Below, in pieces: positions 18,358-47,636 of a stretch of DNA of 64,000 nucleotides; the first letter of the stretch is position 1; each line of letters begins with the position of its first letter. Where the stretch lies: assembly GCA_034430555.1 (NCBI GenBank), contig DAOUEM010000362.1, positions 1,722 to 65,721 of the forward strand. Direction: 5' to 3'. The translations under genes were made by a program, and so were the position numbers. The notes beneath the pieces were generated by a model. The model saw only the letters and a program-made list of their open reading frames with translations, did not search any database and was not told the DNA's origin. This DNA comes from Anaerolineae bacterium. GTDB lineage: Bacteria; Chloroflexota; Anaerolineae; Aggregatilineales; Ch27.

Positions 18358-18461
18358 CCCTCGACGTTTCACCGCTCAGAGCGCGTGAGTCCCACCTGCC
18401 AAAAGCGGCCAATTTGTGTACACTCCGGACAAAGACTATCTGGTTATTTTGAGGTGGGATA

Positions 18462-28475: not shown

Positions 28476-28835
28476 ATGGAGAGCGATACCGAACGCGCAC
28501 AGTTGGAAGTACAATTGGCTTTGTGGCGGCAGCGCCTGCAAGCCTGGGGGTTGGAGGGTATCGTGGCGGCGCTGCTGGAGGCCGCCGAGCCGCTCAGCAT
28601 GTTGGGCGCGCAGGTGCTGTACGTGGCGCAGCCGGCCCTGGGCATCTTTCTGCCGGCGCGGCAGGTGGGCCGGTGGGCGCGCTTGCTGGAAGACCCGGCC
28701 AACGTGGCCTGGGTGCGCACCCGGCTCACTGAGCCGACGTTGACCGGGCCGCGGCTCACCGAGCCAGGACCCGCTCTTCACCAGGATGGGACGTCCCCCG
28801 ACGAGGGAGGGGCACCGGATGACTCCGGAGATTAG
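28476..28835 (+). CDS. Cluster gene 1: small protein with a hydrophobic patch (119 aa)
   Basis: First ORF of the co-directional cluster. Overlaps the next start. No motif recognised. Confidence 0.55.
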   Translation: MESDTERAQLEVQLALWRQRLQAWGLEGIVAALLEAAEPLSMLGAQVLYVAQPALGIFLPARQVGRWARLLEDPANVAWVRTRLTEPTLTGPRLTEPGPALHQDGTSPDEGGAPDDSGD

Positions 28836-29676
28836 TGTCTTCACGCTGCTGGTGCTGCTGTTGACTTTCGTGCTCACGATTCTGGGCGCGCAGGTGTTGC
28901 GGCGGCAGCGCGTCCAGCTTTCACTGCGGCGGATTCGCGCCTACCAGGCGATGCCGGTGGCCGTCAGCGAGGCGGTGGAGGGCGAGCGGCCCATTCACGT
29001 GTCCTTTGGCGGCAGCGGGCTGGGCGGGGCCTCGACCATTTCGGCCCTGGCTGTAGCGGACCTGCTTTATCCGTTGATGGAACGAGCGGCCATTGCCAGC
29101 CAGCCGCCCATCGTCTCCCTGAGCGATCCGACGGCGCTGGGATTGGCGCAGGGCACGCTCCGCCGCGCCTACGAGCGTCGCAATAACGTGGAAGCCTACC
29201 GCAGTACCGCCGCCCGCTGGTACCCCCAGGGACCGCGCTCGCTGGCCTTTGCGGCGGGCGTCGCCGGGGCGCTGGCCGACGAGGACTCGAACCTCAGCGT
29301 GGTGGCCGGGCGTTTCGGCGCGGAGATCGCCTTCATCGGCGAGATGACCATGCGCTACGACCAGCTCTTTTTCGGCCAGAGCGATCAGCTCGACGGGCAG
29401 GCGGTGGCCTACGTCATGTCGGAGCGGGCGCTGATCGGCGAGGAGTTGTACGTCGCCGGGGCCTATTTGCCGCGCCGACCGTCACCGCTGCACCTCAGCC
29501 AGCTTTTGGCGATGGAAGGATTGCGTTTCATTGTGATCGCTGCCATCCTGCTGGTAGCCGTCGGGACTTTTATTGCCGAGAACATCGTCATCATCCTGGC
29601 GGTGGTGGTGCTGCTGATCCTGATCACCGGTGGGTTGTTCGGGCTGCGGCTCTGGCGGCAGCGGGGAGGAAACTGA
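28819..29676 (+). CDS. Cluster gene 2: membrane protein with N-terminal TM and C-terminal double TM
   Basis: GAGGGAGGGG RBS 6 nt before the ATG at 28819. TM 'ISVFTLLVLLLTFVLTILGA' and C-terminal 'FIVIAAILLVAVGTFIAENIVIILAVVVLLILITGGLFGL'. Confidence 0.6.
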   Translation: MTPEISVFTLLVLLLTFVLTILGAQVLRRQRVQLSLRRIRAYQAMPVAVSEAVEGERPIHVSFGGSGLGGASTISALAVADLLYPLMERAAIASQPPIVSLSDPTALGLAQGTLRRAYERRNNVEAYRSTAARWYPQGPRSLAFAAGVAGALADEDSNLSVVAGRFGAEIAFIGEMTMRYDQLFFGQSDQLDGQAVAYVMSERALIGEELYVAGAYLPRRPSPLHLSQLLAMEGLRFIVIAAILLVAVGTFIAENIVIILAVVVLLILITGGLFGLRLWRQRGGN

Positions 29677-29680
29677 GCCG

Positions 29681-30307
29681 ATGCGCCGTTTACTCGCTGT
29701 TTTATCGTCGGCCATCGTCATCGGCCTGGGCCTGATCACGCTGTGGGGCCTGTTCCCGGACTCGCCGGTCGCGCCCGTCGCCGCCGGCCTGATCCAGCTG
29801 GTGGTGGTCATCAGCGCGGTGGCGGTGCTGGTCGGCGTGCTGAACCTGCTGTGGGTGCACCTGCAGCGCGTGCTCAACGGCGAGCCAGGCTGGCCTTACA
29901 GTATCGCGCTGTTCCTGGCCGCGCTGGCCGTGATCGCGATCACCCTGCTGGAGCGCCTGGGCGTGCTGAGCGGCCCCTCCTTGAGCGGCTTCCTGTTCAA
30001 CGCGGTGCAGGTCTCGGTGGAGAGCGCGCTGGCCAGTCTGCTGGTGTTTTTCCTGGTATATGCCGCGGCGCGGATGTTACGCCGCCGCTTGACGTGGGGC
30101 GGCCTGCTGTTTGTCGTCACGCTGTTGATCGTATTGGTCGGTTGGATGCAGGTGCCGGCGCTGGGCGCCTTTAACGGCCTCAGCGAGTGGATCCGTACGG
30201 TGCCGGCCTCGGCCGGGGTGCGGGGCCTGCTGATCGGGGTGGCGCTCGGCGCGACCACGGCAGGCGTCCGCGTGCTGCTGGGGCAGGACCCCAGTTATCG
30301 GGAGTAG
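29681..30307 (+). CDS. Cluster gene 3: polytopic membrane protein
   Basis: GGAGGA RBS. The ATG is 4 nt after the previous stop. At least 5 hydrophobic helices. Confidence 0.65.
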   Translation: MRRLLAVLSSAIVIGLGLITLWGLFPDSPVAPVAAGLIQLVVVISAVAVLVGVLNLLWVHLQRVLNGEPGWPYSIALFLAALAVIAITLLERLGVLSGPSLSGFLFNAVQVSVESALASLLVFFLVYAAARMLRRRLTWGGLLFVVTLLIVLVGWMQVPALGAFNGLSEWIRTVPASAGVRGLLIGVALGATTAGVRVLLGQDPSYRE

Positions 30308-30314: not shown

Positions 30315-33300
30315 ATGTCGGACGAACGTCCGTTACCCCAGGATGAAGGACTGCCCGCCTGGTTACGGGGGCGCATTCACCCCTATCCCGGCGAGCCTGC
30401 CCAGCCGTTACCGCCCGCTGGCGCTGGTGCGCCGGGTGATGCGGGTCAGCCCAGTGAGGGCGATGCCATCGACCTGCTGGCCATCTTTGACGCCGCCGGC
30501 GAACCGGGCGCCCCCGAGATTCCCGTTTCCGATGCGGGCGAGGTGCTGCCCTGGGACGCGGATGCCGGCGCGGACCAGGCGCTGCCCTCCGCCGGGGAAT
30601 TAAAGGGCCTGACCGGCGAGCTGCCCTGGATGTCCGACGTGGTGGCCGATGCCTCACCGGATGCGCTGGCCGGACCTCCCGCCGCTGAGTCGCCTGTCCA
30701 GGACGCTGCGCTGCCCTGGCTGGAGGACGAAACGCCGTCCTCGGTCGCCGAAGACGACGTGCCGATGGCCGACTGGTTCGACCAGGCCCCGCCGCCGCCC
30801 GCCATCCCCGCGGAAGAAGGCCCCGGTTTCCTGGAGGATGACGCGACCCTGGCTGGCGCTTTTGACGAGCCGTCGGCCGCCCCGGAGCAGGGCGAGGAGA
30901 CCCCGGATTGGCTGGTCGTGGCTGATGCCCTGGCCGGCGATGAAGCGCCGCCTGATGCCCCGGCGGAGGATGCCGTGCCCGACTGGCTGTCGACCGGCGA
31001 TCTCACGCCGGAAGCAGCCGCGGGAATTCCCGCGGAGGCCCTCGCTCCCGCCGACGCGCCCGACTGGCTGGCCGCCGTCGACGACTTCGGCGGCGACGAG
31101 GATGAGGACGACGAATACCAGCCCGCCGCCTCCGCCGAACCGGTCGGCGATCCGGAGTGGTTGATCACCGATACCGGCGAAGGTCCGGTCGATTTGCTGC
31201 CGGACGACAGCGGCCTGACCTACGAGGAGTGGGAGCAGACGCAGGACGAGGAAGAAGCGGCGCCTTCCCCGGAAGAACTGCTGGCCCAGGAGGTTCCCGA
31301 CTGGTTCGCCGCCATCGACGAGGACGAGGAAGGGGCGGCTCCGCCGCTCGATGCCGCTGCGCCCGCCGCCGAAGGCGCGGATTTCGTGCCGGACTGGTAC
31401 CTCGGCCTGGAAGAGCAGGATACCTCGGAAGCGCCGGAGTGGTTCAATGGCCTGGATTTCTCCGCCGACGCGCTGACTGCCGAGCCGGTCCTGCCGGAAG
31501 CCCCGGAACCGCCGACACCGGAGTCGGCGCCTGCTGCCCCGGCAACGCCCACCGCGGGTGAGGCGCCCGACTGGCTCCAGGACCTGGGCGAAGACATGCC
31601 TGCCGCCGAACAGGCCAAGCCGCCCACCGGGGAACTGGACGAGCTGTTCGGGGATATGGATTTTTCGGCGGATGCCGGGCCGGTGGAGGAAGTGCCGGAC
31701 TGGTTCACGGGTATTGGCGACGACGCACCCGCCCCGCCGCCCGCCGCGCCGCGCCCGCCCACCGCGCCGCTGGACGACGTGGGCGATCTGTTTGGCGACC
31801 TGGACTTCACGCCCGATGATGCCGCCGCGCTGGCCGAGGCCGCCGTCGGGGACGAGGGCGAAAAGATATCGCCGGATTGGTTGAGCGCTATCGGCCAAGA
31901 GACGGGACTGGTTTCCGACCTGCCCGAATTGGACGCCGAGCCTGACTTTGATTTCCTGGCGGACTTACCGTCCGAAGGGGCCGACGCCGACCTAGACGAC
32001 CTGTTTGGCGAGCTGGACGAGTCCGTGGACGAGTCCGTGGACGCAGCTGATTTTGAGGAAGCGGCTGCGCCCCCGCCGCCGTCCCCGGAGCCGTCAGTCC
32101 TGGAGCCGGGCCAAGCCCCTGACTGGCTGGCCGACATCCAGCCGGAAGATATGCCGTTGACCACCGACGGTCTGCTGGCCGGCGGCGGCGATTTTATGGC
32201 CGTTATCGAAGACGAGTTGGGCGAATTCGACCCGTTTGCCGAGGCCGGTGTCAGCCCGGATTCACAGCTGGTGGCCCCCGCCGATGGCACCCTGGACCTG
32301 GAGGCGCTGCTGTCCGAAGGTGACCTGTCGCCTACGTCCGGCGTGGACCGCCCGCCGCCTGCCGCTCCTGGCCCGGCGCCCACCGGCGATGATGCCGAGA
32401 TGCCCGGCTGGCTGCTGGACGCCCGTCCGGACGAGAGCCGTGGCGGCTTCTCCGTGGTGGACGCGGCTATGCGCCAGGCGGAGGAAGCGCCGGTCGAGGA
32501 GCTGACCGATCGCCTCCAGCACCTGCGCGAGGCCACCCGCCGCGCCGCCGAAGCCGCCGAGGATGCGCCGCCAGCGCCATCTGATGCGGCCAGCCAGGTC
32601 CTGGCCGGGGTCACCGACGGCCTTATGCCGACTCACCTGTTCGAGGAGCCGACCGGGCCGGAAGTCATGCTCACCGTGGAGCTGGACGAGGCCCAGGAAG
32701 CCCGCGTCGCCACCCTGGAGGCGCTGCTCGGCCTGGACGCGCTGCACGAGGGCGAGCCCGCCTACGACGAAGACGGCGAGCCGATCCCCGTCGACTACGA
32801 GCAGGAAGCCCTCCGCGTGCGGGAGGCCGCGCGCCGCGCCCGGGCCCGCAGCCGGTTCAAGCCGGGCCGCGTGGTGATCAGCCTGCTGCTGGTGGTGGCG
32901 GCTGTGATCCCCTTCCTGGTGGACCTGTCCTCATTCTTGCAGTTGCCGGTCGCCGCGCTGGACACGGCGCGCCACGGCGAACTGGACGCCCAGATCGAGC
33001 GGCTGGAGCGGGGCGACCTGGTGCTGGTCGGCTTTGAGTACGGCCCCACCAGCGCCGGCGAGATGGACGTGCTGGCCGAGACTCTACTCAGCCATATCCT
33101 GATCAAAGGCGCGGTGCCCGTGATCGTCAGTACCAACCCGGCGGGCACGCTGCACTCGCGCGACGTGCTGGGTGCCCTGGCCGGCGACGAGTGGCTGCTG
33201 GCCCACATGGGCCGTCCGGCCAATCGCCCGCTGGAGACCCCGGACGACTACGTGATCCTGGCCTACCAGCCCGGCGAGTCGGTCGGGCTGCGTTACCTGG

Positions 33301-34214
33301 CCGAGTGTTTCACCGGCACCGGCGCGCTGGATTGCAGCGCCGTCGTGGCCGATTACCAGGGGAACCCGACCGGCCTGGTCGACGTCTCCTTCGCCCTGAT
33401 GATCACGCTGGCCGAGCGCGGCGAAGACGTCCGCCTGTGGGTGGAGCAGGTCGGCGCTGTTGTGCCGGCGCCGCTGGCCGCCGCCGTGACGGTCGGGGCG
33501 GAGCCGATTGCGCGTCCCTATTTCGCCTCCGGGCAGCTGATCGGTCTGCTGGCCGGGTACCGCGACGCCTACATCTACGACACCGTGCTGCTGGCGGCGC
33601 TGCCGCCGGTGCAGGCTCTGCCGCCGTCCGTCGAGGATACGCCCGCCGGGGACGAAACGCCGGTCGAAGCTGCGGCGCTGCCCACCGTTACCCCGACCGA
33701 AGATTCGCTGACCTTCCTGGCCACGCCGACGGCCGGCGAGGTGCTGCCCACCGCGACGCTCCAGGGCCTGGTGACGCGCACGCCGACCCCGTCCCTGACG
33801 CCTTCCATCACCCTGACGCCCTCGCTGACCTTCACGCCCTCGGCGACAGCCACCGCCACGCGCACGCCCACTTTCACCCACACGCCGCGTCCGCAGGACC
33901 TGACCCAGGCGGCCATTGCCATCGGGTCCGGCACGCCGCTGACGGCCACGCCTACCCCGGTGCCGAGCCACACGCCGACCATCGCCCTGGTGACGGAGAC
34001 GCCCGCGCCGGAAGGCACCGTCGTCGATGAAGCGGCGGACGGCACGGTCGTGGCCGACGCCGCCCTGGCAGAGCAGGTCGTGCAGCCGGAGCGCGTCTAC
34101 CGTGAAGAGCGCTGGTACAGCCTCACGCTGAGCGCCATCGCGGCGACCATCGTGATCGGGTTGGGCGCGATGGTGAACATCTTCCGAGGCATTCGCCGGA
34201 GGCGGGAACAGTGA
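30315..34214 (+). CDS. Cluster gene 4: 1299-aa protein (acidic PDW-repeat disordered region / TM / globular domain / Thr-Pro linker / C-terminal TM)
   Basis: About 800 aa are highly acidic, with 12 strict and 4 degenerate P-[DEG]-W-[LFY] motifs. TM 'VVISLLLVVAAVIPFLV', 'TPTPSLTPSITLTPSLTFTPSATATATRTPTFTHTP', and a terminal TM plus 'RRRREQ'. Confidence 0.75.
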   Translation: MSDERPLPQDEGLPAWLRGRIHPYPGEPAQPLPPAGAGAPGDAGQPSEGDAIDLLAIFDAAGEPGAPEIPVSDAGEVLPWDADAGADQALPSAGELKGLTGELPWMSDVVADASPDALAGPPAAESPVQDAALPWLEDETPSSVAEDDVPMADWFDQAPPPPAIPAEEGPGFLEDDATLAGAFDEPSAAPEQGEETPDWLVVADALAGDEAPPDAPAEDAVPDWLSTGDLTPEAAAGIPAEALAPADAPDWLAAVDDFGGDEDEDDEYQPAASAEPVGDPEWLITDTGEGPVDLLPDDSGLTYEEWEQTQDEEEAAPSPEELLAQEVPDWFAAIDEDEEGAAPPLDAAAPAAEGADFVPDWYLGLEEQDTSEAPEWFNGLDFSADALTAEPVLPEAPEPPTPESAPAAPATPTAGEAPDWLQDLGEDMPAAEQAKPPTGELDELFGDMDFSADAGPVEEVPDWFTGIGDDAPAPPPAAPRPPTAPLDDVGDLFGDLDFTPDDAAALAEAAVGDEGEKISPDWLSAIGQETGLVSDLPELDAEPDFDFLADLPSEGADADLDDLFGELDESVDESVDAADFEEAAAPPPPSPEPSVLEPGQAPDWLADIQPEDMPLTTDGLLAGGGDFMAVIEDELGEFDPFAEAGVSPDSQLVAPADGTLDLEALLSEGDLSPTSGVDRPPPAAPGPAPTGDDAEMPGWLLDARPDESRGGFSVVDAAMRQAEEAPVEELTDRLQHLREATRRAAEAAEDAPPAPSDAASQVLAGVTDGLMPTHLFEEPTGPEVMLTVELDEAQEARVATLEALLGLDALHEGEPAYDEDGEPIPVDYEQEALRVREAARRARARSRFKPGRVVISLLLVVAAVIPFLVDLSSFLQLPVAALDTARHGELDAQIERLERGDLVLVGFEYGPTSAGEMDVLAETLLSHILIKGAVPVIVSTNPAGTLHSRDVLGALAGDEWLLAHMGRPANRPLETPDDYVILAYQPGESVGLRYLAECFTGTGALDCSAVVADYQGNPTGLVDVSFALMITLAERGEDVRLWVEQVGAVVPAPLAAAVTVGAEPIARPYFASGQLIGLLAGYRDAYIYDTVLLAALPPVQALPPSVEDTPAGDETPVEAAALPTVTPTEDSLTFLATPTAGEVLPTATLQGLVTRTPTPSLTPSITLTPSLTFTPSATATATRTPTFTHTPRPQDLTQAAIAIGSGTPLTATPTPVPSHTPTIALVTETPAPEGTVVDEAADGTVVADAALAEQVVQPERVYREERWYSLTLSAIAATIVIGLGAMVNIFRGIRRRREQ

Positions 34215-34861
34215 CGCCAGATACGTTAAACACGCTCGCCGGGTGGGTTGGCTTCGTGCTGACCCTGCTGATCTTCAGCTATTTGCTGGCCGATAACTTT
34301 CTGTACCGGCTGGCGGTGTATGTCTTTGTCGGCGTGGCTGCCGGGTTCACCGCCGTCGTGGCGGTGGAAGGCGTGCTGTTGCCCTGGCTGGAAGGCACCG
34401 TGTTTTCCGCGCAAGCCTCCACCGGCGGGATCGTGCTGGGCGTGGTGCCGCTGATCGTCGGGTTTTTGCTGCTGCTGAAGGCCTCGCCACGGCTGGCCCC
34501 GCTGGGCAACCTGGCCCTGGCCGTCCTGATCGGCATCGGCACGGCGGTGGCGCTGGTCGGCGCGGTGAGCGGCACGCTGCTGCCGCTAGTCGGCTCGACC
34601 GGGGGCGCGGTCACCGCCAGCGTGGACGGCCTGGTGATCATCCTGGGCACCATCACCACGCTGTTATACTTCCAGTACCTGGCGGTCCGGCGGCCCGACG
34701 GCGAAATCTCGCGGCCCCTGGCCCTGCGCGCCGCCGGCACCATCGGCCAGGTATTTTTGATTATTGCTTTCGCCTCGCTCTATGCGGGCGCTATTCTGAC
34801 CAGCCTTACCATTTTCAGTGAACGGATCGCCTTCTTGTTGACGCAGGTCGCGGGCGGGTAG
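34211..34861 (+). CDS. Cluster gene 5: polytopic membrane protein
   Basis: GTG start overlaps the previous TGA (GTGA). About 6 hydrophobic helices. Confidence 0.65.
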   Translation: MTPDTLNTLAGWVGFVLTLLIFSYLLADNFLYRLAVYVFVGVAAGFTAVVAVEGVLLPWLEGTVFSAQASTGGIVLGVVPLIVGFLLLLKASPRLAPLGNLALAVLIGIGTAVALVGAVSGTLLPLVGSTGGAVTASVDGLVIILGTITTLLYFQYLAVRRPDGEISRPLALRAAGTIGQVFLIIAFASLYAGAILTSLTIFSERIAFLLTQVAGG

Positions 34862-34880
34862 CTAAACCGGGCGAATAACT

Positions 34881-37103
34881 ATGGCTGAATCGGGCGACAT
34901 CAATTCCATACTGGCGGCGGATTTTGGCAGCGTCAATACGCGCGTCGTGCTGATCGATCTGGTGGACGGCGCCTACCGCCTGGTCGCGCGCAGCGTCACC
35001 CGCACTACGGTGGATGACCCGCTGCGCGACGTGGCCGTCGGCCTGTACCGGGGCGCTTCCCAGATGGCCGAACAGATCGGGCGGCCCCTGGTAGCCGCCA
35101 ACAACGACTCCATCCTCACGCCGGAGGAATCCGATGGCAGCGGCGTGGACGCCGTGCTGGCCACGGCCAGCGTGGGCCGTCCGCTGCGCGTGGTGCTGGT
35201 CGGCCTGATGCCCGATGTCAGCGTGAGCAGCGGCCTGAACGTGCTGGCCGGCTCTTACGTGCAGGTGATCGACAAGCTCTCCCTGGCCGACATCCGCAGC
35301 GAAGAGCAGCAGATTAACGACCTGCTGTCCCGCCAGCCGGACCTGATCTTCATCGTCGGCGGCACGGACGCCGGGGCGGAAGCGTCCATTCTGCGGCTGG
35401 TCGACGTGGTCGGGCAGGCCGTGCAGATGGCCCCCCAGCCGCCGATGGTGCTTTACGCCGGCAATCGCGCCGCGCAGGTGGGCGTCCGCGAGCGGCTGGA
35501 AGGGATATGCACGCTGTTTGTGGCGGATAACGTGCGCCCCAGCCTGATGGACGAGCAGCTCGGCTCTGCCCAGCAAGAATTGGCCGCCGTTTACGACCGG
35601 TTTAAGGTGAACAACCGCTTCGGTTTTGACGAGATCAGCGAGATCAGCGCGATGGGCGTGCTGCCCACCGCCCAGAGTTACACCAACATCGTGCGTTACC
35701 TGGGCGAGATCACGGCGCGCGATCCCAGGGATAAAGGCGCGGCGGCCGTGGGCGTGCTGGCGGTTGACGTGGGCAGCGCCACGACCACCGTGGCCGCTTC
35801 CATCCGCAAGCGCAACACGATCAACATCCGCGCCGACGTGGGGGTGGGGCACAGCGCCGCCGGGGCGCTGGCCGCGACCACGCCCGCCAACGTGCGCCGC
35901 TGGCTCACCTGGGACGCCACCAACGCCGAGATCGCCGATTACGCCTACAACAAAATGCTGCACCCGGCCACCGTCCCCCAGACCGCGCAGGAGCTGGAGC
36001 TGGAATACGCCCTGGCCCGCGAGGCCATCCGGGTGGTGGTCGAGCAGGCGTCGAAGTCCTGGCGGCTGCGCGGCAAGGAGCGTATCCCGGTCCTCAGCCC
36101 ACTGATCGGCGCGGGCACGGTGCTGGCCGGGGCCGCGCACTCCGGCATCGCCGCCCTGATCCTGCTGGATGCCATCCAGCCGGTCGGCGTGACCGAGTTG
36201 TGGCTGGACCCGGCGGGCCTGATCCCGGCGCTGGGCGCGCTGGCTTACCTCAAGCCTTCCTCGGTGGTGCAGATGCTGGACGCGGGCGATCTGGTCATGA
36301 TCGGCTCGGTGGTCTGCGCGGATGGGGGCGTGCGCATCGGGCGCGGCGGCATGAAGGTCACCATCGAGCTGGCCAACGGCGAGGTGATCAAGCGCGGCGT
36401 GGTGGGCGGCTCCCTGTGGACCTACCCGCTGCCGCCGGGGCAGACGGCTAAGGTCGACGTCAGGGTCTCGCGCGGGCTGAGCATCAACGGCCGCTCGCGG
36501 ATCAAGCGGACGCTCAAAGGCGGCGCGGCGGGCCTCATCTTTGATGCACGTGGCCGCCCCCTGGCGCTGCCTCGCCGGGCGGAGGCGCGCGCCGAGTTGT
36601 ACCCGCGCTGGGTGGCCGGCACCAGGGGCCACATTCAACTGCGGGTCTCCGAGGTGGACGAGTCGGCCGTCGACGCCCAGGCGCTGGTCGAAGCGGAAAA
36701 GGCGCCCGAGCCGGACCTGGAAGCCCTCGGCGAGACGGCGGCGGCCCCGGCCCCTAAGCGGCGCGGCTTGTTCGGGCGGCGGCGCGGTACGGTCGAAGCC
36801 GGCCCTGGCGATGGCGACAGTGCCGAACCGGACCTCGATCTCTTTGGCGACCTGGCGGAAGCACCCGCCGAGGACGAAACGCCCGCGCACGCCGCGCCGC
36901 CAGCCGGGGCGAAAGAAAAACCCCGCCGGAGTCGTTTTGGGCGGCGTGGCCGGGCCGAAACAGCCGAGTCAGCCGCCGACGAGCCGGACAGGGACGCGGA
37001 CGAGGAACCGGCGGCGGAACAGCCTTCCGAGATGGATTTGCTGGTGGACGACCTGCGCCTGGACGACGAGCCGAAGAAGCGGCGCGGTCCCTTCCGGAGA
37101 TAA
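34881..37103 (+). CDS. Cluster gene 6: ASKHA-superfamily (GlmL/MutL-like, actin-fold) ATPase with a long charged C-terminal tail
   Basis: Phosphate-1-like 'LAADFGSVNTRVVLIDL' and second-lobe 'VLAVDVGSATTTVA'. The last approximately 170 aa are low-complexity, Arg/Glu/Asp/Pro-rich. Confidence 0.7.
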   Translation: MAESGDINSILAADFGSVNTRVVLIDLVDGAYRLVARSVTRTTVDDPLRDVAVGLYRGASQMAEQIGRPLVAANNDSILTPEESDGSGVDAVLATASVGRPLRVVLVGLMPDVSVSSGLNVLAGSYVQVIDKLSLADIRSEEQQINDLLSRQPDLIFIVGGTDAGAEASILRLVDVVGQAVQMAPQPPMVLYAGNRAAQVGVRERLEGICTLFVADNVRPSLMDEQLGSAQQELAAVYDRFKVNNRFGFDEISEISAMGVLPTAQSYTNIVRYLGEITARDPRDKGAAAVGVLAVDVGSATTTVAASIRKRNTINIRADVGVGHSAAGALAATTPANVRRWLTWDATNAEIADYAYNKMLHPATVPQTAQELELEYALAREAIRVVVEQASKSWRLRGKERIPVLSPLIGAGTVLAGAAHSGIAALILLDAIQPVGVTELWLDPAGLIPALGALAYLKPSSVVQMLDAGDLVMIGSVVCADGGVRIGRGGMKVTIELANGEVIKRGVVGGSLWTYPLPPGQTAKVDVRVSRGLSINGRSRIKRTLKGGAAGLIFDARGRPLALPRRAEARAELYPRWVAGTRGHIQLRVSEVDESAVDAQALVEAEKAPEPDLEALGETAAAPAPKRRGLFGRRRGTVEAGPGDGDSAEPDLDLFGDLAEAPAEDETPAHAAPPAGAKEKPRRSRFGRRGRAETAESAADEPDRDADEEPAAEQPSEMDLLVDDLRLDDEPKKRRGPFRR

Positions 37104-37156
37104 GCGGGCGAGTTTTAGCGCAGCGGCGGCGGGTGGCCGGCTGCTGAGGGTGAGCC

Positions 37157-38236
37157 ATGGCGAATTATTATCCAGACCAATCGACCATCCTGCCGATGTG
37201 CACCATCCGGCGCGAGCGCCTGCTGCCGGAGGACGTGTTCGGCACCGTCACCGTGCGCGAAGGCGAGCACGTCAACGCCATGAATGTCGTGGCGCGCGGC
37301 GTCCGTGCCAACCGCTACGTGATCCTCAACCTGCGCCACCTGCTCGACATGGACGACCCGGACGACATTGAATCCCTGGTGCACGTCGCGCCGGGCGAGG
37401 CCTTCAAGGAAGGGCAGGTCATCGCCGGGGACCAGGAGCACAGCCGCAAATTGGTCCGCGCGCCCGTGAGCGGCATGATGTTGCGCCTGCTGGAAGGCCG
37501 CCTGGTCCTGCAAACCGGCCTCACCGAGGTGTCCGTGCGGGCCGGCTTCAACGGCCAGGTCACGTCGATCCGGGCCAACCGCGGCGTGCTGCTGGAAACG
37601 ACCGGCGCGCTGGTCCAGGGAGTGTGGGGCAACGGCTGCGATCACTTTGGCGTGGTGCAAAAGGAGCCGGAAGGTGGCCTGGCCGCGCTGGAGGTGGACG
37701 AGTTCACCACGGAATGGCGCGGGGCGATCGTGATCACCGGGCGGCCCCTGGTCAAGCTGGCGCTGCACAAGGCGGAGGCCCAGACTATCGGCGGAATCAT
37801 CGCCCCCAGCATGAATGCCGACTTGCGCGAAGTTGCATTACGCCTCAAAATGCCCATAATGCTGACTGAGGGCTTTGGCGATATGCAGATGGGCAGGCTG
37901 GTGTCCGACGTCCTGGAGCAGTATGTCGGGCGTCAGGCCGCCCTCAGCGCCGTCAAGCCGGAACGCGGGCAGGCCAGTCGCCCGGAGGTGATCGTGCCCC
38001 TGCACACCGACGACCGGGTGGCCGCCCCGGCGCGCGACGAGCCGCTGCGGCTGGGATCGGAAGTCCGCCTGACACGGGCTCCTTACCAGGGTATCGTCGG
38101 CAAGGTGGCGAGCCTGCCCAGGACGCCCCAGGTGATCGAGAATGGGCTGCGCCTGCCGGTGGCGATGGTCAACCTGCCCAGCGGGCGTACGGTGACGGTC
38201 CCGCTGGTGAACCTGGAGATGTTTGGACGGGGTTAG
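37157..38236 (+). CDS. Cluster gene 7: hypothetical protein with a barrel-sandwich (lipoyl/HlyD-like) N-domain and a KOW/SH3-like C-terminus
   Basis: 'VREGEHVNAMNVVARG...VAPGEAFKEGQVIAG...VRAPVSGMM' resembles barrel-sandwich hybrids. C-terminal 'YQGIVGKVASL'. Assignment by eye only. Confidence 0.6.
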   Translation: MANYYPDQSTILPMCTIRRERLLPEDVFGTVTVREGEHVNAMNVVARGVRANRYVILNLRHLLDMDDPDDIESLVHVAPGEAFKEGQVIAGDQEHSRKLVRAPVSGMMLRLLEGRLVLQTGLTEVSVRAGFNGQVTSIRANRGVLLETTGALVQGVWGNGCDHFGVVQKEPEGGLAALEVDEFTTEWRGAIVITGRPLVKLALHKAEAQTIGGIIAPSMNADLREVALRLKMPIMLTEGFGDMQMGRLVSDVLEQYVGRQAALSAVKPERGQASRPEVIVPLHTDDRVAAPARDEPLRLGSEVRLTRAPYQGIVGKVASLPRTPQVIENGLRLPVAMVNLPSGRTVTVPLVNLEMFGRG

Positions 38237-38311
38237 CCGCCCCGGTTGGTCGAGGGGGAGATCCCCTCAGTAGTTCGGGGGCTGTTCCCCCACACGGTGA
38301 AGGAGATAGCG

Positions 38312-39127
38312 ATGAGCGACGACGATCTGTTTGGCGACAGCAGAGACGACTTTTTTGGGGATGACGATGATTTTGGGGGAGATACCTTCGACGAATTCGA
38401 GAGTTTTGACGACTTCGATCTCGGCGACGAGGAGGTCGACGCCCCGGACTTCGGCGAGGACTTCACCGCGGAGGAAGGTGGTCCTGCCGGTGCGACGCTC
38501 TTCGGCCTGAACCGCACCTTCGTGCTGATCGCCGGCGCGGCGGCCCTGGTGATCTGCGTGGCGGTCGTCGTGCTGGTACTCGTGATCGGGACGGGCGGCC
38601 CGTCCGACGTGGACCTGACCATCACCGCGGTCTACGCGACCAACACCCAGGTGGCCCTCTTCCTGGAGGAAACCGCGACGCAAAACGCGTTGAGCCTGGA
38701 TATGACGGCCACCGCCGATGCCTGGACCGATACGCCCACGCCGGTGCCGTCCGATACGCCCACCATCGCGCCTACCGAAGTGCCGGCCACCAGCACGCCG
38801 CTCTTCGTGACGCCCACCGTAGACCCCAACCAGTCGGGCGGCGGCGGCCTGGAACCCAATGCCGTGGCGCTGACGGCGACCGCGCTGGCCGGCATCCTGG
38901 CCGGGGCGACCGAAGCCGCGCCTCCCGGTGAGTTCCTCACGCCGACGATCGACACCGGCGCCGGCCCGGGGACCGGCGGCCTTACCCCGATCGCCACGCG
39001 GCTGCCCACTACCGGCCTGTTCGACGACATCGGCACGGGCAACGGCGTCAACGGCCTCCTGACGGCGGGGCTGGCCCTGGTCGGGCTGGCGGCGGTGATC
39101 GTGGTGGCGCGGCGCTTGCGGGCTTAA
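38312..39127 (+). CDS. Cluster gene 8: acidic N-tail / TM / Thr-Pro-rich ectodomain / LPXTG-type C-terminal sorting signal
   Basis: GAAGGAG RBS. 'DDLFGDSRDDFFGDDDDFGGD', TM 'FVLIAGAAALVICVAVVVLVLVI', and a C-terminal 'LPTTG' followed by a hydrophobic stretch and 'RRLRA*'. Confidence 0.7.
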   Translation: MSDDDLFGDSRDDFFGDDDDFGGDTFDEFESFDDFDLGDEEVDAPDFGEDFTAEEGGPAGATLFGLNRTFVLIAGAAALVICVAVVVLVLVIGTGGPSDVDLTITAVYATNTQVALFLEETATQNALSLDMTATADAWTDTPTPVPSDTPTIAPTEVPATSTPLFVTPTVDPNQSGGGGLEPNAVALTATALAGILAGATEAAPPGEFLTPTIDTGAGPGTGGLTPIATRLPTTGLFDDIGTGNGVNGLLTAGLALVGLAAVIVVARRLRA

Positions 39128-39367: not shown

Positions 39368-40753
39368 ATGTCCACTCAAACTGTCAACCTCTACCGTGAG
39401 CATGATCGCCGGTTCGTCCTCGAAATGCTGGCCAGCGGCCAGTGCGTGGCCGTCATCGGTCTGAGCAACTTCGGCAAGTCCGAGCTGCTGCGCGCCCTGG
39501 AAAGCCCTGAGTCCACCCGCGAATACCAGACCATGACCGGCGCCAACGCGCTCTTCGTCTATGTGGACTGCAACCGGATGCTGGAGCTGTCGCCGCGCGG
39601 CTTTTTTGAGGCCACGCTGCGCGCCATCCTGGAAGTCCTGCCGGCGGAAGAAGTCGAGATGCGGGCCGTGGTCGAGGAGCAGTACCAGATCGTCGTGCAG
39701 CCCCCCAATGATTTCGCCGCGCCCCTGGCCTTCAACAATGCCCTGGTGGCGCTGGTCGAAGACGACTCGCGCGCGCCGGGCCGCCGCGTGATCCTGCTGT
39801 TGGACGAGTTCGACGAGGTGCTGACAGGCATCGAGCCGCGCATCCTGTTGAACCTGCGCGCCCTGCGCGATAAATACGACGTCGACCTGAACTACGTGAT
39901 CGCCTCCGTGATCCCGCCCTCCCAGGGACCGCAAAACGAGCACGTGGCCGAGTTCGCGGAGCTGTTCGCCGTGGGTAAGTGTCTCCTCGGCCCGCTGACT
40001 CCGGCGGATACGCGCCTGATGGCCGCCGAGATCTTTACCGCCGCCGATGACGCTGTCGACGAGCCGGAGGCCGCGTATGTGCTGGCCCAGGCAGGCGGCC
40101 ATCCCGGCCTGATCCGGGCGGTGTGCCGCGTGTTACTCCAGGTGGAAAGCGGCGCGCCCCAGTTATACCAGCAGAAAGCCTTCGAGCTGGCCAACGCCGT
40201 CCTCGAGTCCGACCGCCTGACCCTGATCGAGCTATCCCGCCTGTGGGAGCAGCTTGCCCCCCCGCTGCAGCAGGCCGTGGTAGAACTCGCCGCTTCCGGC
40301 CGCGTCTCGGAGGAGGGGCAACGTCAGTTGGCCCAGCGGGGCATCCTGCTCGAGGGTGGGGGCGATGGGTCGCCGCGTCTTTTTGGGGAACTGTTCGCCC
40401 GCTTCGCCCGCCGTAAAGCGCTGGCCCGGCACGGCATCCCGCAGGGCGTGTGGGTGGATACCGACGCCGGCGAAGTCTGGGTGGACGGCGTGTCCGTTTC
40501 CACCCTCACCGAGCTGGAATACCGCCTGCTGCTGCTGCTGTACGGCCGGCTGGAAAAGATTTGCGACAAGTACCAGCTGGTGGAAGCGGTGTGGGGCCAG
40601 GAGTACATCGACGAAGTGGACGACGCACGGGTGGAAAAGCTGGTCAGCCGGCTGCGCGCCAAGCTGGAGGAGCACGAGGATGCTGCGCGTTACCTGGTGA
40701 CCGTGCGTGGACGCGGCTACAAGCTCTCCAGCGCCCCGGAGCCGGTGACTTGA
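39368..40753 (+). CDS. P-loop NTPase (AAA/STAND-like) fused to a C-terminal OmpR/PhoB-type winged-helix DNA-binding domain
   Basis: Walker A 'GLSNFGKS' and Walker B 'ILLLDEFD'. C-terminal 'LTELEYRLLLLLYG.....C....LVEAVWG.......D.ARVEKLVSRLRAKLE......YLVTVRGRGYKL'. Confidence 0.8.
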   Translation: MSTQTVNLYREHDRRFVLEMLASGQCVAVIGLSNFGKSELLRALESPESTREYQTMTGANALFVYVDCNRMLELSPRGFFEATLRAILEVLPAEEVEMRAVVEEQYQIVVQPPNDFAAPLAFNNALVALVEDDSRAPGRRVILLLDEFDEVLTGIEPRILLNLRALRDKYDVDLNYVIASVIPPSQGPQNEHVAEFAELFAVGKCLLGPLTPADTRLMAAEIFTAADDAVDEPEAAYVLAQAGGHPGLIRAVCRVLLQVESGAPQLYQQKAFELANAVLESDRLTLIELSRLWEQLAPPLQQAVVELAASGRVSEEGQRQLAQRGILLEGGGDGSPRLFGELFARFARRKALARHGIPQGVWVDTDAGEVWVDGVSVSTLTELEYRLLLLLYGRLEKICDKYQLVEAVWGQEYIDEVDDARVEKLVSRLRAKLEEHEDAARYLVTVRGRGYKLSSAPEPVT

Positions 40754-40956
40754 GTCTGGTCGGCGGTGCTCGCTCCCAAGCACATAAATTGTGACATACT
40801 TGATGAAGTGTCTGGGCCTGATGCTGGCCTGATAAACGACTGTTCGGGCGGTTCTGCCGCCGCTGCCCGGTCCGCCGGGACCGTGACCCACCAGCCCGAA
40901 TCGGCGGCTGCCGCGCTGGTGTCCGCCGGTTAAGCCGTTTGAACTCGAGACCATCC

Positions 40957-45567: not shown

Positions 45568-45590
45568 GGTTTTTTTTGAAGGAGGCGCCA

Positions 45591-46712: not shown

Positions 46713-46946
46713 CGGGCTGCCCGGTCTCGCCGCCGGGGCGACCACGGGCCGCCGGGAGACGATTGCCCATTGCCGCCGGTGCGTCTATAGTATCCCTGGG
46801 CCTGGACGCCGTCCGGGCCGGCAGCCGGTCGTCAGTCTGGCGGGAAGCGTCAGCTTGGCGTCTGACTGGTGTCAGTGTCATATCCTGCTGGCTGTGTTAC
46901 CATAAAGATCAGGATTGAGAACCAACTTTAAGGAGGACCTTCGCTC

Positions 46947-47636
46947 ATGGCTCAATCGTTCTTGGAAAAAGTTAACACCCTGATCTCCGCTAATATGCAT
47001 GGCATGGTTGATCGGGCGCTGGAAGCGAATTCCGTCAAGGTGATGGACGAGTACATTCGCCAGGCCGAGCGTAACCTGGATTCGCTGGAAGATTCGGCCG
47101 CCACCGTCGGCGGCACCGTTCGCACCCTGAAGCGTAAGTACGAGGAGTTTGCCGCCTCCGCCGAAAAGCTGGACCGCGACATCGATACGCTGCTGATCAA
47201 GGGTAAAGATGAGCTGGCCGCTGCCGCCCAGGCCGACCTCAATACCAAGCAGCAGCTCGCCCAGGAATATTACGAGCAGTGGCATGCGCAGGAAGACCAG
47301 TACCGCAAGATGATGGACATGAAGCTGAAGCTGGAAGCCAAGCTCACCACCATCAAGCAGGAGCGCGAGCAGGTCAAGGCCCTCCTGGAACTGGCCGAGG
47401 CCAAAGCCATCACCACCAAGACCATCAAGAGCCTGGACGACCTGGCCGGCGTGGGCGACGAGGATGTCACCCGCGTGGTGGACGCCATCCGGTCCCGACT
47501 GGATCGCGAGGACGCCAAGCTCGACATGGCGACCGGCCGCCTGTCCGAACAGATCGAGGAGGCCGTCGGCTACAGCGAGATCGACATGCAGCTTTCCGAG
47601 CGGCGCAAGCGCCTGAATCTGGACGAAGGGGAATAA
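46947..47636 (+). CDS. pspA: PspA/IM30 (Vipp1) family membrane-stress protein
   Basis: N-terminus 'FLEKVNTLISANMHGMVDRALE....MDEYIRQAERNL' and an all-coiled-coil composition typical of PspA. AGGAGG RBS. Confidence 0.8.
   Translation: MAQSFLEKVNTLISANMHGMVDRALEANSVKVMDEYIRQAERNLDSLEDSAATVGGTVRTLKRKYEEFAASAEKLDRDIDTLLIKGKDELAAAAQADLNTKQQLAQEYYEQWHAQEDQYRKMMDMKLKLEAKLTTIKQEREQVKALLELAEAKAITTKTIKSLDDLAGVGDEDVTRVVDAIRSRLDREDAKLDMATGRLSEQIEEAVGYSEIDMQLSERRKRLNLDEGE

What the first reader, a model, noticed from the sequence alone, without database searches (positions are those of the whole stretch)
31641..38350. A shared 'D-L-F-G-D' short linear motif recurs in the acidic tails of three different proteins of the operon
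Seen in sequence: the giant protein carries 'ELFGDMDF' (about 31641-31668), 'DLFGDLDF' (about 31785-31810) and 'DLFGELDE' (about 31998-32020). The ASKHA protein tail carries 'LDLFGDLAE' (about 36835-36860). The LPXTG protein begins 'MSDDDLFGDSRDDFFGDD' (about 38321-38350). Four of the five copies use nearly the same codons (ga[tc] ct[gc] ttt ggc ga[cg]). All five lie in predicted cytoplasmic, acidic, low-complexity segments. Inference: this is a docking motif recognised by one common partner encoded in or near the operon, giving multivalent recruitment of the ATPase, the giant scaffold and the surface protein to the same site.
Basis: seen in the sequence. Interest (0 to 1): 0.7.

Follow-up and report, generated by a model that had tools for sequence, protein, structure and literature searches.

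The report
Shared acidic docking-type motif in operon tails
A five-residue acidic motif (D/E-L-F-G-D/E) really does recur, far beyond chance, in the disordered cytoplasmic tails of three proteins of an uncharacterised envelope operon of Anaerolineae bacteria, but it is a young, lineage-specific flavour of a larger and much better conserved set of tail motifs, and its binding partner is still unknown.

Summary
[DE]LFG[DE] occurs five times in the six-frame translation of the 64-kb window. All five copies lie in the cytoplasmic disordered parts of three adjacent genes: a 1299-aa membrane protein ("giant"), a GlmL/MutL-type ASKHA ATPase, and an LPTTG-ended membrane protein ("p7"). Shuffles of the three segments expect 0.028 copies.

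The DNA flanks of copies in different genes are unrelated. The shared codons are simply the preferred ones. In the nearest relative all copies are kept, through synonymous changes only.

The motif is not conserved deeper. Only 2 of 120 ASKHA tails have it, 8 of 69 giant orthologues, and 4 of 71 p7 orthologues. Its presence in giant and p7 is not correlated across genomes. It does recur in unrelated flanks in distant lineages, about 12-19 times more often than composition predicts.

The family-wide motifs are different:
- [VL]P[DE]W[LF] in giants (501 copies)
- [DE][LM]Px[FIL][DE] in p7
- I[DP][EP]xW[LF] in many ASKHA tails

Hybrid forms (PEWFGDLDF, APDFGED) tie DLFGD to that set.

Most likely these are multivalent docking motifs for a conserved cytoplasmic operon protein, either the ASKHA core or gene 6. 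No partner was shown. The operon has seven genes and has not been described in the literature I could search.

The parts
28786..29676 (+). Operon gene 1: polytopic membrane protein, DUF6754. Its C-terminus ends in GLFGLRLWRQR (nt 29632-29664).
   Evidence: Pfam PF20539, E = 2.9e-20. Syntenic in 55 of 55 complete loci.
29678..30307 (+). Operon gene 2: small polytopic membrane protein with no family assignment.
   Evidence: No Pfam or NCBIfam hit. Conserved and colinear in related loci.
30315..34214 (+). Operon gene 3, the 'giant' (1299 aa). It has a cytoplasmic acidic disordered region (aa 1-850, net charge -188), a transmembrane segment at 853-871, an outside globular part, a Thr/Pro-rich linker and a C-terminal transmembrane segment at 1272-1290.
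   Evidence: Translation and hydropathy. Orthologues found.
30354..32417 (+). Array of 18 Trp motifs in the giant's disordered region. Thirteen are P[DEAG]W[LFY], for example VPDWL, APDWL, VPDWF.
   Evidence: The family-wide consensus is [VL]P[DE]W[LFM][AS]x[LMI]: 501 [DE]W-hydrophobic instances across 69 orthologues, with the core 4-mers in 56-57 of them, 40-80 times above shuffles.
31434..31469 (+). Hybrid module PEWFNGLDFSAD (giant aa 374-385). It reads PEWFGDLDFSAE in the nearest relative.
   Evidence: It links the PDW-type motif to the LFGD[LM]DF[ST] module.
31635..31673 (+). Giant copy 1: LDELFGDMDFSAD (core ELFGD, nt 31641-31655).
   Evidence: Kept in P0122/L086 with a synonymous change.
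31779..31817 (+). Giant copy 2: VGDLFGDLDFTPD (core DLFGD, nt 31785-31799).
   Evidence: Kept in P0122/L086 through three synonymous changes.
31992..32021 (+). Giant copy 3: LDDLFGELDE (core DLFGE, nt 31998-32012).
   Evidence: The core is kept in P0122/L086 while the flanks diverge.
34211..34861 (+). Operon gene 4: polytopic membrane protein with no family assignment.
34881..37103 (+). Operon gene 5: GlmL/MutL-type ASKHA ATPase. The folded core is aa 1-590 and the disordered tail is about 150 aa.
   Evidence: PF13941, E = 1e-59. The AlphaFold2 core has pLDDT above 90 and the tail 632-712 is below 50.
36756..36788 (+). Basic box 1 of the ASKHA tail: KRRGLFGRRRG. Box 2 is RRSRFGRRGR at nt 36924-36953. 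Box 3 is KKRRGPFRR at the C-terminus, nt 37074-37100.
   Evidence: These boxes are the conserved tail feature in the close clade P0001-P0024.
36834..36860 (+). ASKHA-tail copy: LDLFGDLAE (core DLFGD, nt 36837-36851), lying between basic boxes 1 and 2.
   Evidence: It is present only in the window and in the 83%-identical P0002. About 10 of 24 close homologues have a looser form at this position (two hydrophobic residues, G or A, an acidic residue, a hydrophobic residue).
37157..38236 (+). Operon gene 6 (g7, 359 aa): a conserved cytoplasmic beta-rich protein. It has an N-terminal barrel-sandwich domain and a C-terminal KOW/SH3-like barrel. It is a candidate motif reader.
   Evidence: No Pfam hit. 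AlphaFold2 pLDDT 90.8. Only domain-level PDB matches were found: Spt5 KOW5, uL24, NqrA, NusG domain II.
38312..39127 (+). Operon gene 7 (p7): acidic N-terminal cytoplasmic tail (75 aa, net charge -24), transmembrane segment 71-89, Thr/Pro-rich outside part, LPTTG (nt 39002-39016), a hydrophobic segment, then RRLRA.
   Evidence: Positional orthologues exist in 71 loci, 53 of them with an LPxTG-like C-terminal signal.
38312..38365 (+). p7 N-terminus MSDDDLFGDSRDDFFGDD. DLFGD is at nt 38324-38338 and DFFGD at nt 38348-38362.
   Evidence: MSD[DRK]D[DE]LF or DIFGD is kept in the near clade (L081, L082, L002, L004, L005).
38435..38470 (+). p7 motif EEVDAPDFGEDF. It is this clade's form (hydrophobic-P-x-F-G-[DE]) of the family-wide p7 motif [DE][LM]Px[FIL][DE].
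   Evidence: Sequence. All 7 near-clade p7 proteins keep it. Family-wide there are 40 observed against 2.3 expected, in 37 of 71 loci, at a fixed distance from the transmembrane segment.

Best explanation
DLFGD, in its extended form hydrophobic-[DE]-x-hydrophobic-F-G-[DE]-hydrophobic, is a short linear docking motif. It is a recent, lineage-specific variant of a family-wide class of acidic, aromatic motifs in the cytoplasmic disordered tails of the two single-anchor envelope proteins of a seven-gene Anaerolineae operon (giant and p7) and in the tail of the operon's ASKHA ATPase.

Shown:
- The motif is far above chance, specific to the operon, held by protein-level selection over short evolutionary distance, lost over longer distance, and re-invented in other lineages.
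- The same three proteins carry a better conserved proline-aromatic motif across the family: [VL]P[DE]W[LF] about 7 times per giant, [DE][LM]Px[FIL][DE] once in p7, and I[DP][EP]xW[LF] once in many ASKHA tails.
- Hybrid forms (PEWFGDLDF, PDWFGDM, APDFGED) connect the two motifs.

Inferred:
- These motifs are many weak ligands for one conserved folded cytoplasmic component of the operon.
- My first choice for that component is the ASKHA core, by analogy with PilM binding the N-terminal peptide of PilN and FtsA binding the FtsZ and FtsN peptides. My second choice is the KOW/SH3-like barrel of gene 6.
- The effect would be to concentrate the ATPase under a complex that reaches the cell wall, through an LPxTG signal on p7 and SH3b domains on giants of other clades.
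- The copy in the ATPase's own tail would then act as a competing pseudo-ligand or as a self-association site.
For: - Five copies against 0.028 expected; 0 of 20,000 shuffles reach five.
- No shared exact 5-mer in 3000 shuffles.
- Background is 1 per 294,233 residues outside the operon and 0 in 6,690 residues of acidic non-operon segments.
- The DNA flanks of copies in different genes are unrelated.
- Against the nearest relative, all 24 core residues are identical while the disordered regions are 63-88% identical. The giant's core codons show 5 synonymous and 0 non-synonymous changes.
- Across 69 giants: strict motif 11 observed against 0.59 expected; relaxed hydrophobic-FG[DE] 38 against 6.4, in 22 loci; extended consensus 13 against 0.28, in 12 loci, in non-homologous flanks.
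- Across p7 tails: 5 observed against 0.41 expected.
- Family-wide motifs are documented, and the hybrid forms.
- The operon is colinear in 55 of 55 complete loci.
- PilM and FtsA, including their peptide-bound structures, are among the nearest solved folds to the ASKHA model.
- Gene 6 ends in a KOW/SH3-like barrel.
Against: - No binding partner was demonstrated.
- AlphaFold2 leaves the ASKHA-tail copy disordered and undocked, with pLDDT about 52.
- The exact motif is absent from 118 of 120 ASKHA tails and from most giant and p7 orthologues.
- Its presence in giant and p7 is uncorrelated across genomes. One shared receptor would predict some correlation, unless the receptor tolerates the whole motif class.
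- Fold matches of the ASKHA core are generic, with TM-score at most 0.45, so the PilM/FtsA analogy is only an analogy.
- The proteome-wide test was limited to about 300,000 residues from flanks of related genomes.
- Several copies within one giant may come from internal duplication. Flanks within the giant are 50-55% identical, so the copies are not all independent.
Confidence: 0.45

Rival explanations
1. Sticker-and-spacer electrostatics without a specific pocket. The acidic tails with scattered Phe/Trp 'stickers' associate collectively with Arg-rich hydrophobic boxes (RRRGLFGRRR in the ASKHA tail, juxtamembrane RRGLFGLNR in p7) or with the membrane surface. This would form a dense layer under the membrane. 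What matters is composition and patterning, not the exact motif.
For: - The giant tail has net charge -188 over 850 aa and the p7 tail -24 over 75 aa.
- The conserved ASKHA-tail features of the close clade are three Arg-rich GLFG boxes separated by acidic spacers.
- The LFG tripeptide is enriched 25-fold in ASKHA tails, in a basic context.
- The identity of the acidic motif drifts between lineages (DLFGD, DDFF[AS]xL, FDFDDD) while the acidic-aromatic character stays.
- Presence is not correlated between the proteins.
Against: - [VL]P[DE]W[LF] and the p7 motif are conserved in exact sequence and, in p7, in position. This points to a shaped binding site.
- Many clades have acidic giant and p7 tails although their ASKHA has no tail or only a short non-basic one. 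The Arg boxes therefore cannot be the obligatory counterpart.
- The LFG[DE] core is invariant against the nearest relative while the flanks change.
Confidence: 0.25
2. No function. The recurrence is a by-product of low-complexity acidic composition, preferred codons and internal duplication inside the giant, with two coincidental extra copies.
For: - The codon similarity is explained by codon bias.
- The giant copies have 50-55% identical flanks, consistent with internal repeats.
- The motif is missing from most orthologues.
Against: - Composition-preserving shuffles never reproduce it.
- Flanks of copies in different genes are unrelated, so there was no copying between genes.
- Only synonymous change is seen in the core codons.
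- Family-wide enrichment is 12-46-fold, in unrelated flanks.
- It does not occur in non-operon acidic segments.
Confidence: 0.12
3. The motif docks to a housekeeping hub outside the operon. One example would be a beta-clamp-type pocket, whose known ligand consensus is QL[SD]LF (LDLF and LDDLF resemble it). Another would be FtsZ- or FtsA-type division proteins. A further possibility is that it is a protease or processing signal.
For: LDLFGD and LDDLFGE contain an L-[DS]-L-F-like core. That they resemble the clamp ligand rests on my own knowledge of the consensus. p7 tails of some clades carry LDE[IM]PxF[DE], which recalls the FtsZ C-terminal peptide LDIPxFL, again from my own knowledge.
Against: - The conserved Q of clamp ligands is missing.
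- The motif is confined to this operon in about 300,000 residues of neighbouring genes. A housekeeping hub should have ligands elsewhere too.
- The carriers are tethered to the membrane.
Confidence: 0.08

Closest known systems
PilM-PilN (type IV pilus alignment complex)
   Same: An ASKHA/actin-fold cytoplasmic ATP-binding protein is encoded next to a single-pass membrane protein. That protein's extreme N-terminal cytoplasmic peptide docks on the ASKHA protein. PilM, including the PilM:PilN(1-12) structure, is among the nearest solved folds to the ASKHA model. The p7 motif sits at residues 5-9 of a single-anchor membrane protein.
   Different: There is no sequence relation: PilN's peptide is a neutral INLLP-type motif and is not acidic. 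TM-scores are at most 0.45. No pilus genes are present. Here the motifs are multi-copy and sit in very long acidic tails. Binding was not shown.
FtsA binding of the FtsZ C-terminal peptide and the FtsN N-terminal peptide
   Same: A membrane-associated actin-fold protein reads short acidic-hydrophobic peptides at the ends of disordered linkers. FtsA:FtsZ(336-351) and FtsA:FtsN(1-29) structures appear among the fold neighbours. The basic-hydrophobic boxes at the ASKHA C-terminus could play the role of FtsA's membrane-targeting helix; this is inference.
   Different: The protein belongs to a different ASKHA subfamily (PF13941, GlmL/MutL type). It has an extra beta domain and a 150-aa tail. The operon is not a division cluster. 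The motif sequence differs.
Motif arrays of eukaryotic endocytic adaptors (DPW, DPF, FxDxF, DLL/DLF in epsin, Eps15, AP180) - from my own knowledge
   Same: Long disordered acidic regions carry many copies of very short Asp-Pro-Trp and Asp-Leu-Phe type motifs that give multivalent weak binding to a folded hub. The giant has 13 P[DEAG]W[LFY] copies plus 3 DLF-containing copies.
   Different: The carrier is bacterial and membrane-anchored, with no homologous hub domains. The resemblance is one of design only and was not tested.
GlmL / MutL accessory protein of glutamate (methylaspartate) mutase
   Same: Same Pfam family PF13941 (E = 1e-59, 203 bits).
   Different: It falls far below the NCBIfam equivalog cut-off (96.7 against 475 bits). 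No mutase genes are adjacent. It carries a long charged tail and sits in a membrane-protein operon.

Membership tests
Short linear docking motif (general definition) | Lies in an intrinsically disordered, accessible region | tested here: met
   All copies are in acidic low-complexity cytoplasmic segments. The ASKHA tail 632-712 has pLDDT below 50.
Short linear docking motif (general definition) | Occurs more often than composition predicts and is conserved relative to its flanks | tested here: met
   5 observed against 0.028 expected. All 24 core residues are kept against the nearest relative, with disordered-region identity of 63-88%. Only synonymous changes are seen in the core codons.
Short linear docking motif (general definition) | Evolutionary turnover with convergent re-appearance in orthologues | tested here: met
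   Absent from most orthologues, but 12-19-fold (strict motif) to 46-fold (extended consensus) above expectation, in unrelated flanks.
Short linear docking motif (general definition) | A defined folded partner binds it | not testable with these tools
   Complex prediction was not possible. The single-chain ASKHA model does not dock its own copy.
GlmL/MutL ASKHA family (PF13941) | Match to the family profile above the curated cut-off | tested here: met
   203 bits against a cut-off of 27, over residues 10-467.
Methylaspartate mutase accessory protein GlmL (NCBIfam NF040745 equivalog) | Score above the equivalog cut-off, and a mutase gene context | tested here: not met
   96.7 bits against a cut-off of 475. 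The neighbours are membrane proteins, not mutase subunits.
Sortase substrate (LPXTG cell-wall sorting signal) | LPXTG pentapeptide followed by a hydrophobic segment and a basic tail at the C-terminus | tested here: met
   LPTTG at aa 231-235, hydrophobic segment 248-266, then RRLRA. 53 of 71 positional orthologues have the same layout.
Sortase substrate (LPXTG cell-wall sorting signal) | Cleavable N-terminal signal peptide and a sortase gene | tested here: inconclusive
   The N-terminus is a 70-aa acidic cytoplasmic tail plus a membrane anchor, not a classical signal peptide. The three Pfam scans of neighbouring window ORFs found no sortase domain. The rest of the genome was not available.
Beta-clamp binding motif (QL[SD]LF) | Conserved Gln followed by L-x-L-F | tested here: not met
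   None of the five copies has Gln. Contexts are LDELF, VGDLF, LDDLF, DLDLF and DDDLF.
FG-nucleoporin-type GLFG repeats | Many GLFG repeats in uncharged Asn/Gln/Ser/Thr-rich spacers | tested here: not met
   Only one exact GLFG box is in the ASKHA tail, flanked by Arg runs. The spacers are strongly acidic.

The most novel reading that the evidence does not exclude
The seven-gene Anaerolineae operon encodes an envelope-spanning machine that has not been described. In it, an 850-residue polyanionic disordered tail carries about 20 short Trp/Phe motifs, and a second, cell-wall-anchored protein carries the same motif class. Together they act as a multivalent landing pad that recruits and regulates an actin-fold ATPase. 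The ATPase's own tail carries a competing pseudo-ligand plus Arg-rich membrane anchors. This would be a bacterial counterpart, by design, of eukaryotic adaptor motif arrays. The recognition code is evolving fast enough that one lineage has switched part of it from PDW[LF] to DLFGD in all three proteins at once.
Probability: 0.2. Interest if true: 0.8.

Novelty: new variant of a known kind. Interest (0 to 1): 0.55.

Why it matters
Multivalent short-motif scaffolds in long disordered regions are a hallmark of eukaryotic cell biology and are rarely documented in bacteria. Here a whole bacterial class keeps an operon whose two membrane-anchored proteins and its actin-fold ATPase share a fast-evolving motif vocabulary. 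Full-text searches of the paper library for its family names (DUF6754, PF13941, TIGR01319, GlmL) and for the motif strings found nothing relevant.

If the partner is found, it would give three things:
- a handle on the function of an uncharacterised envelope system of Anaerolineae, which are abundant filamentous bacteria in sludge, sediments and mats;
- a natural case of a recognition motif being swapped in several partners within one lineage;
- defined peptides for pull-downs.

The exact DLFGD motif on its own is of narrow reach: this lineage plus scattered convergent cases.

Tried and rejected
- **DNA-level repeat or gene conversion between the copies.** Rejected. Flanks of copies in different genes are 23-37% identical. 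The degenerate 15-mer occurs only at four of the five protein-motif sites. The nearest relative differs synonymously inside the core.
- **Codon identity as evidence of common origin.** Rejected. CTG, GGC and GAC are the dominant codons. TTT is the minor Phe codon (66 against 105), but 4 of 5 is not significant.
- **The ASKHA-tail copy as a conserved family feature.** Rejected. Only 2 of 120 tails have it. The conserved tail features are the Arg-rich GLFG boxes, the E[ML]DxM[MV]DELR helix and, in other clades, the TGDPxxxIDExWLxP element.
- **Co-occurrence of the motif in giant and p7 across genomes.** Tested and not found.
- **AlphaFold2 of full-length ASKHA, to see whether the tail copy docks in cis.** No docking was seen.
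- **Fold and sequence searches to name gene 6, the giant's outside domain and DUF6754.** Only domain-level or insignificant hits.
- **Literature searches.** Searches for DUF6754, PF13941, GlmL with ASKHA, TIGR01319, the motif strings, and Anaerolineae with short linear motifs found nothing relevant.
- **Sortase or other informative neighbours in the window.** No sortase was found.
- **Not attempted:** complex prediction with a fused sequence.


Full report
**What is in the sequence**

The window is about 66% G+C. Between nt 28786 and 39127 it carries seven co-directional, tightly packed genes:
- gene 1: a DUF6754 polytopic membrane protein (PF20539)
- gene 2: a second polytopic membrane protein
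- gene 3: a 1299-aa protein, "giant"
- gene 4: a third polytopic membrane protein
- gene 5: a 740-aa ASKHA protein of the GlmL/MutL family (PF13941, E = 1e-59; far below the GlmL equivalog cut-off)
- gene 6: a 359-aa protein without any family, "g7"
- gene 7: a 271-aa protein, "p7"

The giant has an 850-residue acidic N-terminal region (25% Asp+Glu, net charge -188), then a hydrophobic segment preceded by RRARARSRFKPGR, an outside part with a Thr/Pro-rich linker, and a C-terminal hydrophobic segment followed by RRRREQ. p7 has a 70-residue acidic N-terminal tail (net charge -24), a membrane segment, a Thr/Pro-rich outside part, LPTTG, a hydrophobic segment and RRLRA. By the positive-inside rule both acidic regions are cytoplasmic.

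- giant ELFGD, nt 31641-31655
- giant DLFGD, nt 31785-31799
- giant DLFGE, nt 31998-32012
- ASKHA DLFGD, nt 36837-36851
- p7 DLFGD, nt 38324-38338, with DFFGD eight residues later

p7 most likely starts at ATG 38312, which has GGAG upstream, so its motif sits at residues 5-9.

**Is it more than chance?**

[DE]LFG[DE] occurs exactly five times in the six-frame translation of the whole 64 kb, and only at these places.

Shuffling the residues of the three disordered segments expects 0.028 copies. None of 20,000 shuffles reached five.

To remove the bias of picking the motif after seeing it, I asked how often any exact 5-mer with at least three different letters is shared by all three segments. 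This never happened in 3000 shuffles. With Asp=Glu and similar mergers, P = 0.037.

The shared codons are not evidence of common descent. CTG, GGC and GAC are simply the preferred codons. The 30 nt on either side of copies in different genes are 23-37% identical, which is random. Within the giant the flanks are 50-55% identical, which fits internal repetition of a longer module LFGD[LM]DF[ST]xD.

**Surroundings and relatives**

The ASKHA protein has hundreds of homologues, all from Anaerolineae or other Chloroflexota where named. A scan of species-representative genomes found 322 loci, of which 80 were fetched.

All 55 loci that are long enough carry the six BLAST-detectable genes in the same order and strand. 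In 71 loci a p7-like gene follows g7, with an acidic tail, a membrane segment and a Thr/Pro-rich part. In 53 of these it ends in an LPxTG-like signal.

This is therefore a conserved, class-wide operon. Full-text searches for its family names and for the motif found nothing.

**Conservation of the motif**

*Short range.* A metagenome (SRR13394437) holds the nearest relative. Its ASKHA is 83% identical, g7 90% and giant about 76%. It keeps every copy and has a fourth in the giant, PEWFGDLDFSAE, where the window has PEWFNGLDFSAD. All 24 core residues are identical although the disordered regions are only 63-88% identical. The 12 core codons of the giant show five synonymous and no non-synonymous differences. 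Selection therefore acts on the peptide, not on the DNA.

*Longer range.* At the next step (ASKHA 71% identical, L082) the giant and ASKHA copies are gone. Only p7 keeps MSDDIFGD. Across the family the strict motif is found in:
- 2 of 120 ASKHA tails
- 8 of 69 giants and 4 of 71 p7 tails

Its presence in giant and p7 is not correlated (Fisher p = 1.0 strict, 0.67 relaxed).

*Recurrence.* The motif is nevertheless over-represented family-wide:
- giants, strict: 11 observed against 0.59 expected
- giants, relaxed hydrophobic-FG[DE]: 38 against 6.4, in 22 loci
- giants, extended consensus hydrophobic-[DE]-x-hydrophobic-F-G-[DE]: 13 against 0.28, in 12 loci
- p7 tails, strict: 5 against 0.41

These copies sit in flanks that are not alignable between lineages.

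*Background.* Outside the operon, 294,233 residues of ORFs in the same loci hold one copy. Their acidic segments (6,690 residues) hold none.

This pattern is what fast-evolving docking motifs look like: tight over short distance, lost over long distance, and re-invented. It also means that the state "the same 5-mer in all three proteins" is peculiar to this lineage.

An unbiased 4-mer enrichment over the 69 giant tails is dominated by a different motif, [VL]P[DE]W[LFM][AS]x[LMI]. It has 501 copies in total, with its core 4-mers in 56-57 of 69 loci at 40-80-fold above expectation. A second motif is DDFF[AS]xL. In the window, 17 of the 18 Trp residues of the giant tail sit in such contexts.

p7 tails carry one positionally fixed [DE][DE][LM]Px[FIL][DE][DE], 8-22 residues before the membrane (40 observed against 2.3 expected, 37 of 71 loci). 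In the window's clade it reads hydrophobic-P-x-F-G-[DE] in all 7 members: APDFGED in the window, and LPEFGEE, MPQFGDE and others elsewhere.

Forty-six of 120 ASKHA homologues carry a strongly conserved [AV]TGDPxxxI[DP][EP]xW[LF]xP directly after the folded core.

So the three proteins do share a motif class across the family: an acidic residue, a hydrophobic residue, Pro, any residue, then Trp or Phe. DLFGD[L] fits the same template, [DE], two hydrophobic residues, a small residue, any residue, a hydrophobic residue (compare D-W-L-A-x-L and D-F-F-A-S-L). It is joined to that class by hybrids: PEWFGDLDF, PDWFGDM and APDFGED. I read DLFGD as a derived variant of that vocabulary. This step is inference.

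**The ASKHA tail**

In the close clade the conserved features of the tail, in order, are:
- RRRGLFG[RF]RR
- an acidic spacer
- RRGLFGRRR
- an acidic helix E[ML]DxM[MV]DELR
- a C-terminal KKRRGLFRR

The window's DLFGDL lies in the first acidic spacer. About 10 of 24 relatives have a looser version there: EAFADL, S-ILGDVL, DFMAHI.

**Structures**

g7 gives a confident AlphaFold2 model (pLDDT 90.8) with no whole-protein match in the PDB. Its C-terminal 60-80 residues are a KOW/SH3-like barrel (Spt5 KOW5 at rmsd 1.7 Å; uL24). Its N-terminal part resembles the barrel-sandwich domains of NqrA and of NusG domain II.

The ASKHA core is confident (pLDDT above 90 for residues 10-580). The tail 632-712, which includes DLFGD, is disordered and not docked. 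Only 717-729 forms a helix, with pLDDT 64-70. The nearest solved folds are generic ASKHA proteins: acetophenone carboxylase/hydantoinase type, PilM, FtsA, sugar kinases, diol-dehydratase reactivase and DnaK. All have TM-scores of at most 0.45.

**How it most likely works**

*Shown.* A selected, operon-specific, fast-evolving peptide motif lies in cytoplasmic disordered tails. It sits within a family-wide set of related motifs shared by the same three proteins.

*Inferred.*
- The motifs are multivalent weak ligands for a conserved folded cytoplasmic component of the operon.
- The ASKHA core is my first candidate. Precedents are PilM with the PilN N-terminal peptide, and FtsA with the FtsZ and FtsN peptides. 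The ASKHA core and g7 are also the only universally conserved cytoplasmic folded proteins of the operon.
- The KOW/SH3-like barrel of g7 is the second candidate.
- The Arg-rich GLFG boxes cannot be the obligatory partner, because many clades keep acidic tails although their ASKHA has no basic tail.
- The outside parts point to the cell wall: an LPxTG signal on p7, and SH3b domains in giants of other clades. The likely role is to couple an ATPase to a wall-anchored membrane complex.

I put 0.45 on this reading. The rivals are:
- composition-driven sticker-and-spacer association: 0.25
- no function: 0.12
- a hub outside the operon, or a processing signal: 0.08

**Comparison with what is known, and verdict**

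The ASKHA protein is a member of PF13941 but is not a GlmL equivalog. p7 has the C-terminal half of a sortase signal, but no classical signal peptide and no sortase nearby. The motif matches no clamp-binding, FtsZ-tail, SSB-tail or nucleoporin definition (see the membership table). In design it resembles PilM-PilN, FtsA-peptide systems and, more loosely, eukaryotic endocytic motif arrays.

The exact motif is a narrow, lineage-specific variant. The broader phenomenon is undescribed and worth following up: a class-wide operon whose disordered tails share a motif vocabulary, including an 850-residue polyanionic tail with about 20 motifs. Interest 0.55; new variant of a known kind.

Noticed in passing
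window 30354-32417 (giant aa 14-701): The giant's tail carries 18 Trp residues. Seventeen sit in P-x-W-hydrophobic, L-P-W or A-D-W contexts (VPDWL, APDWL, VPDWF and so on). Across 69 orthologues this [VL]P[DE]W[LF] motif has 501 copies and is by far the most enriched and best conserved tail motif, much more so than DLFGD.
   Followed up: yes
window 36756-36788, 36924-36953, 37074-37100 (ASKHA tail): Three Arg-rich boxes with a GLFG/RFG/GPF core (KRRGLFGRRRG, RRSRFGRRGR, C-terminal KKRRGPFRR) alternate with acidic spacers. RRRGLFG[RF]RR boxes are the conserved tail feature of the close clade. They share the LFG core with the acidic motif but in the opposite charge context. They may be membrane anchors or counter-ions for the acidic tails.
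   Followed up: partly
ASKHA homologues P0041-P0120, directly after the folded core (window equivalent about nt 36640-36680, VDESAVD): 46 of 120 homologues carry a strongly conserved element [AV]TGDPxxxI[DP][EP]xW[LF]xP (T 89%, G 100%, W 100%). It resembles the giant's PDW[LF] motif. The window's clade has lost the Trp at this position.
   Followed up: partly
window 38435-38470 and 38495-38521 (p7): p7 carries EEVDAPDFGEDF, which is this clade's form (hydrophobic-P-x-F-G-[DE]) of a positionally fixed p7 motif [DE][LM]Px[FIL][DE] found in 37 of 71 orthologues. It also has a juxtamembrane TLFGLNRTF, which reads RRGLFGLNRRF in L002. DUF6754 likewise ends in GLFGLRLWRQR (nt 29632-29664).
   Followed up: partly
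window 37157-38236 (g7): This conserved 359-aa protein has no family and no whole-fold match in the PDB. Its confident model shows a barrel-sandwich N-terminal domain and a KOW/SH3-like C-terminal barrel. Its invariant residues include W157-G-N and L236-T-E-G-F-G. It could be an enzyme or a peptide reader.
   Followed up: partly
P0139, P0146, P0162, P0186 (giant orthologues), residues about 1000-1250: In other clades the outside part of the giant carries one or two bacterial SH3 domains (PF08239), where the window has only a Thr/Pro-rich linker. This suggests contact with the cell wall.
   Followed up: partly
L082-L084, between gene 4 and the ASKHA gene (L082 7493-9942): In the 71%-identical relative two extra genes are inserted inside the operon: an NAD-dependent epimerase and a 479-aa secreted protein without a family.
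   Followed up: no
window 39368-47636, also L082 14317-22151: The downstream neighbours are conserved with the operon in the close relative: a STAND-type ATPase fused to an OmpR-type DNA-binding domain, a 1542-aa PAS/GAF histidine kinase, a response-regulator histidine kinase, and a PspA/IM30 membrane-stress protein. They may be the operon's regulators.
   Followed up: no
window 21924-23453 and 24448-26292: dnaA lies about 5 kb upstream of the operon, so the locus is probably near the replication origin. Next to it is a protein with an N-terminal TIR domain fused to PD40 beta-propeller repeats.
   Followed up: no
window 15030-19700: Three adjacent genes encode paralogous secreted proteins that share an N-terminal Cys-containing module. 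Two of them carry bacterial SH3 domains.
   Followed up: no
window 38246 versus 38312: The mechanical ORF start for p7 (TTG 38246) is probably wrong. ATG 38312 has a GGAG ribosome-binding site 8 nt upstream, and orthologues begin with MSD.
   Followed up: yes
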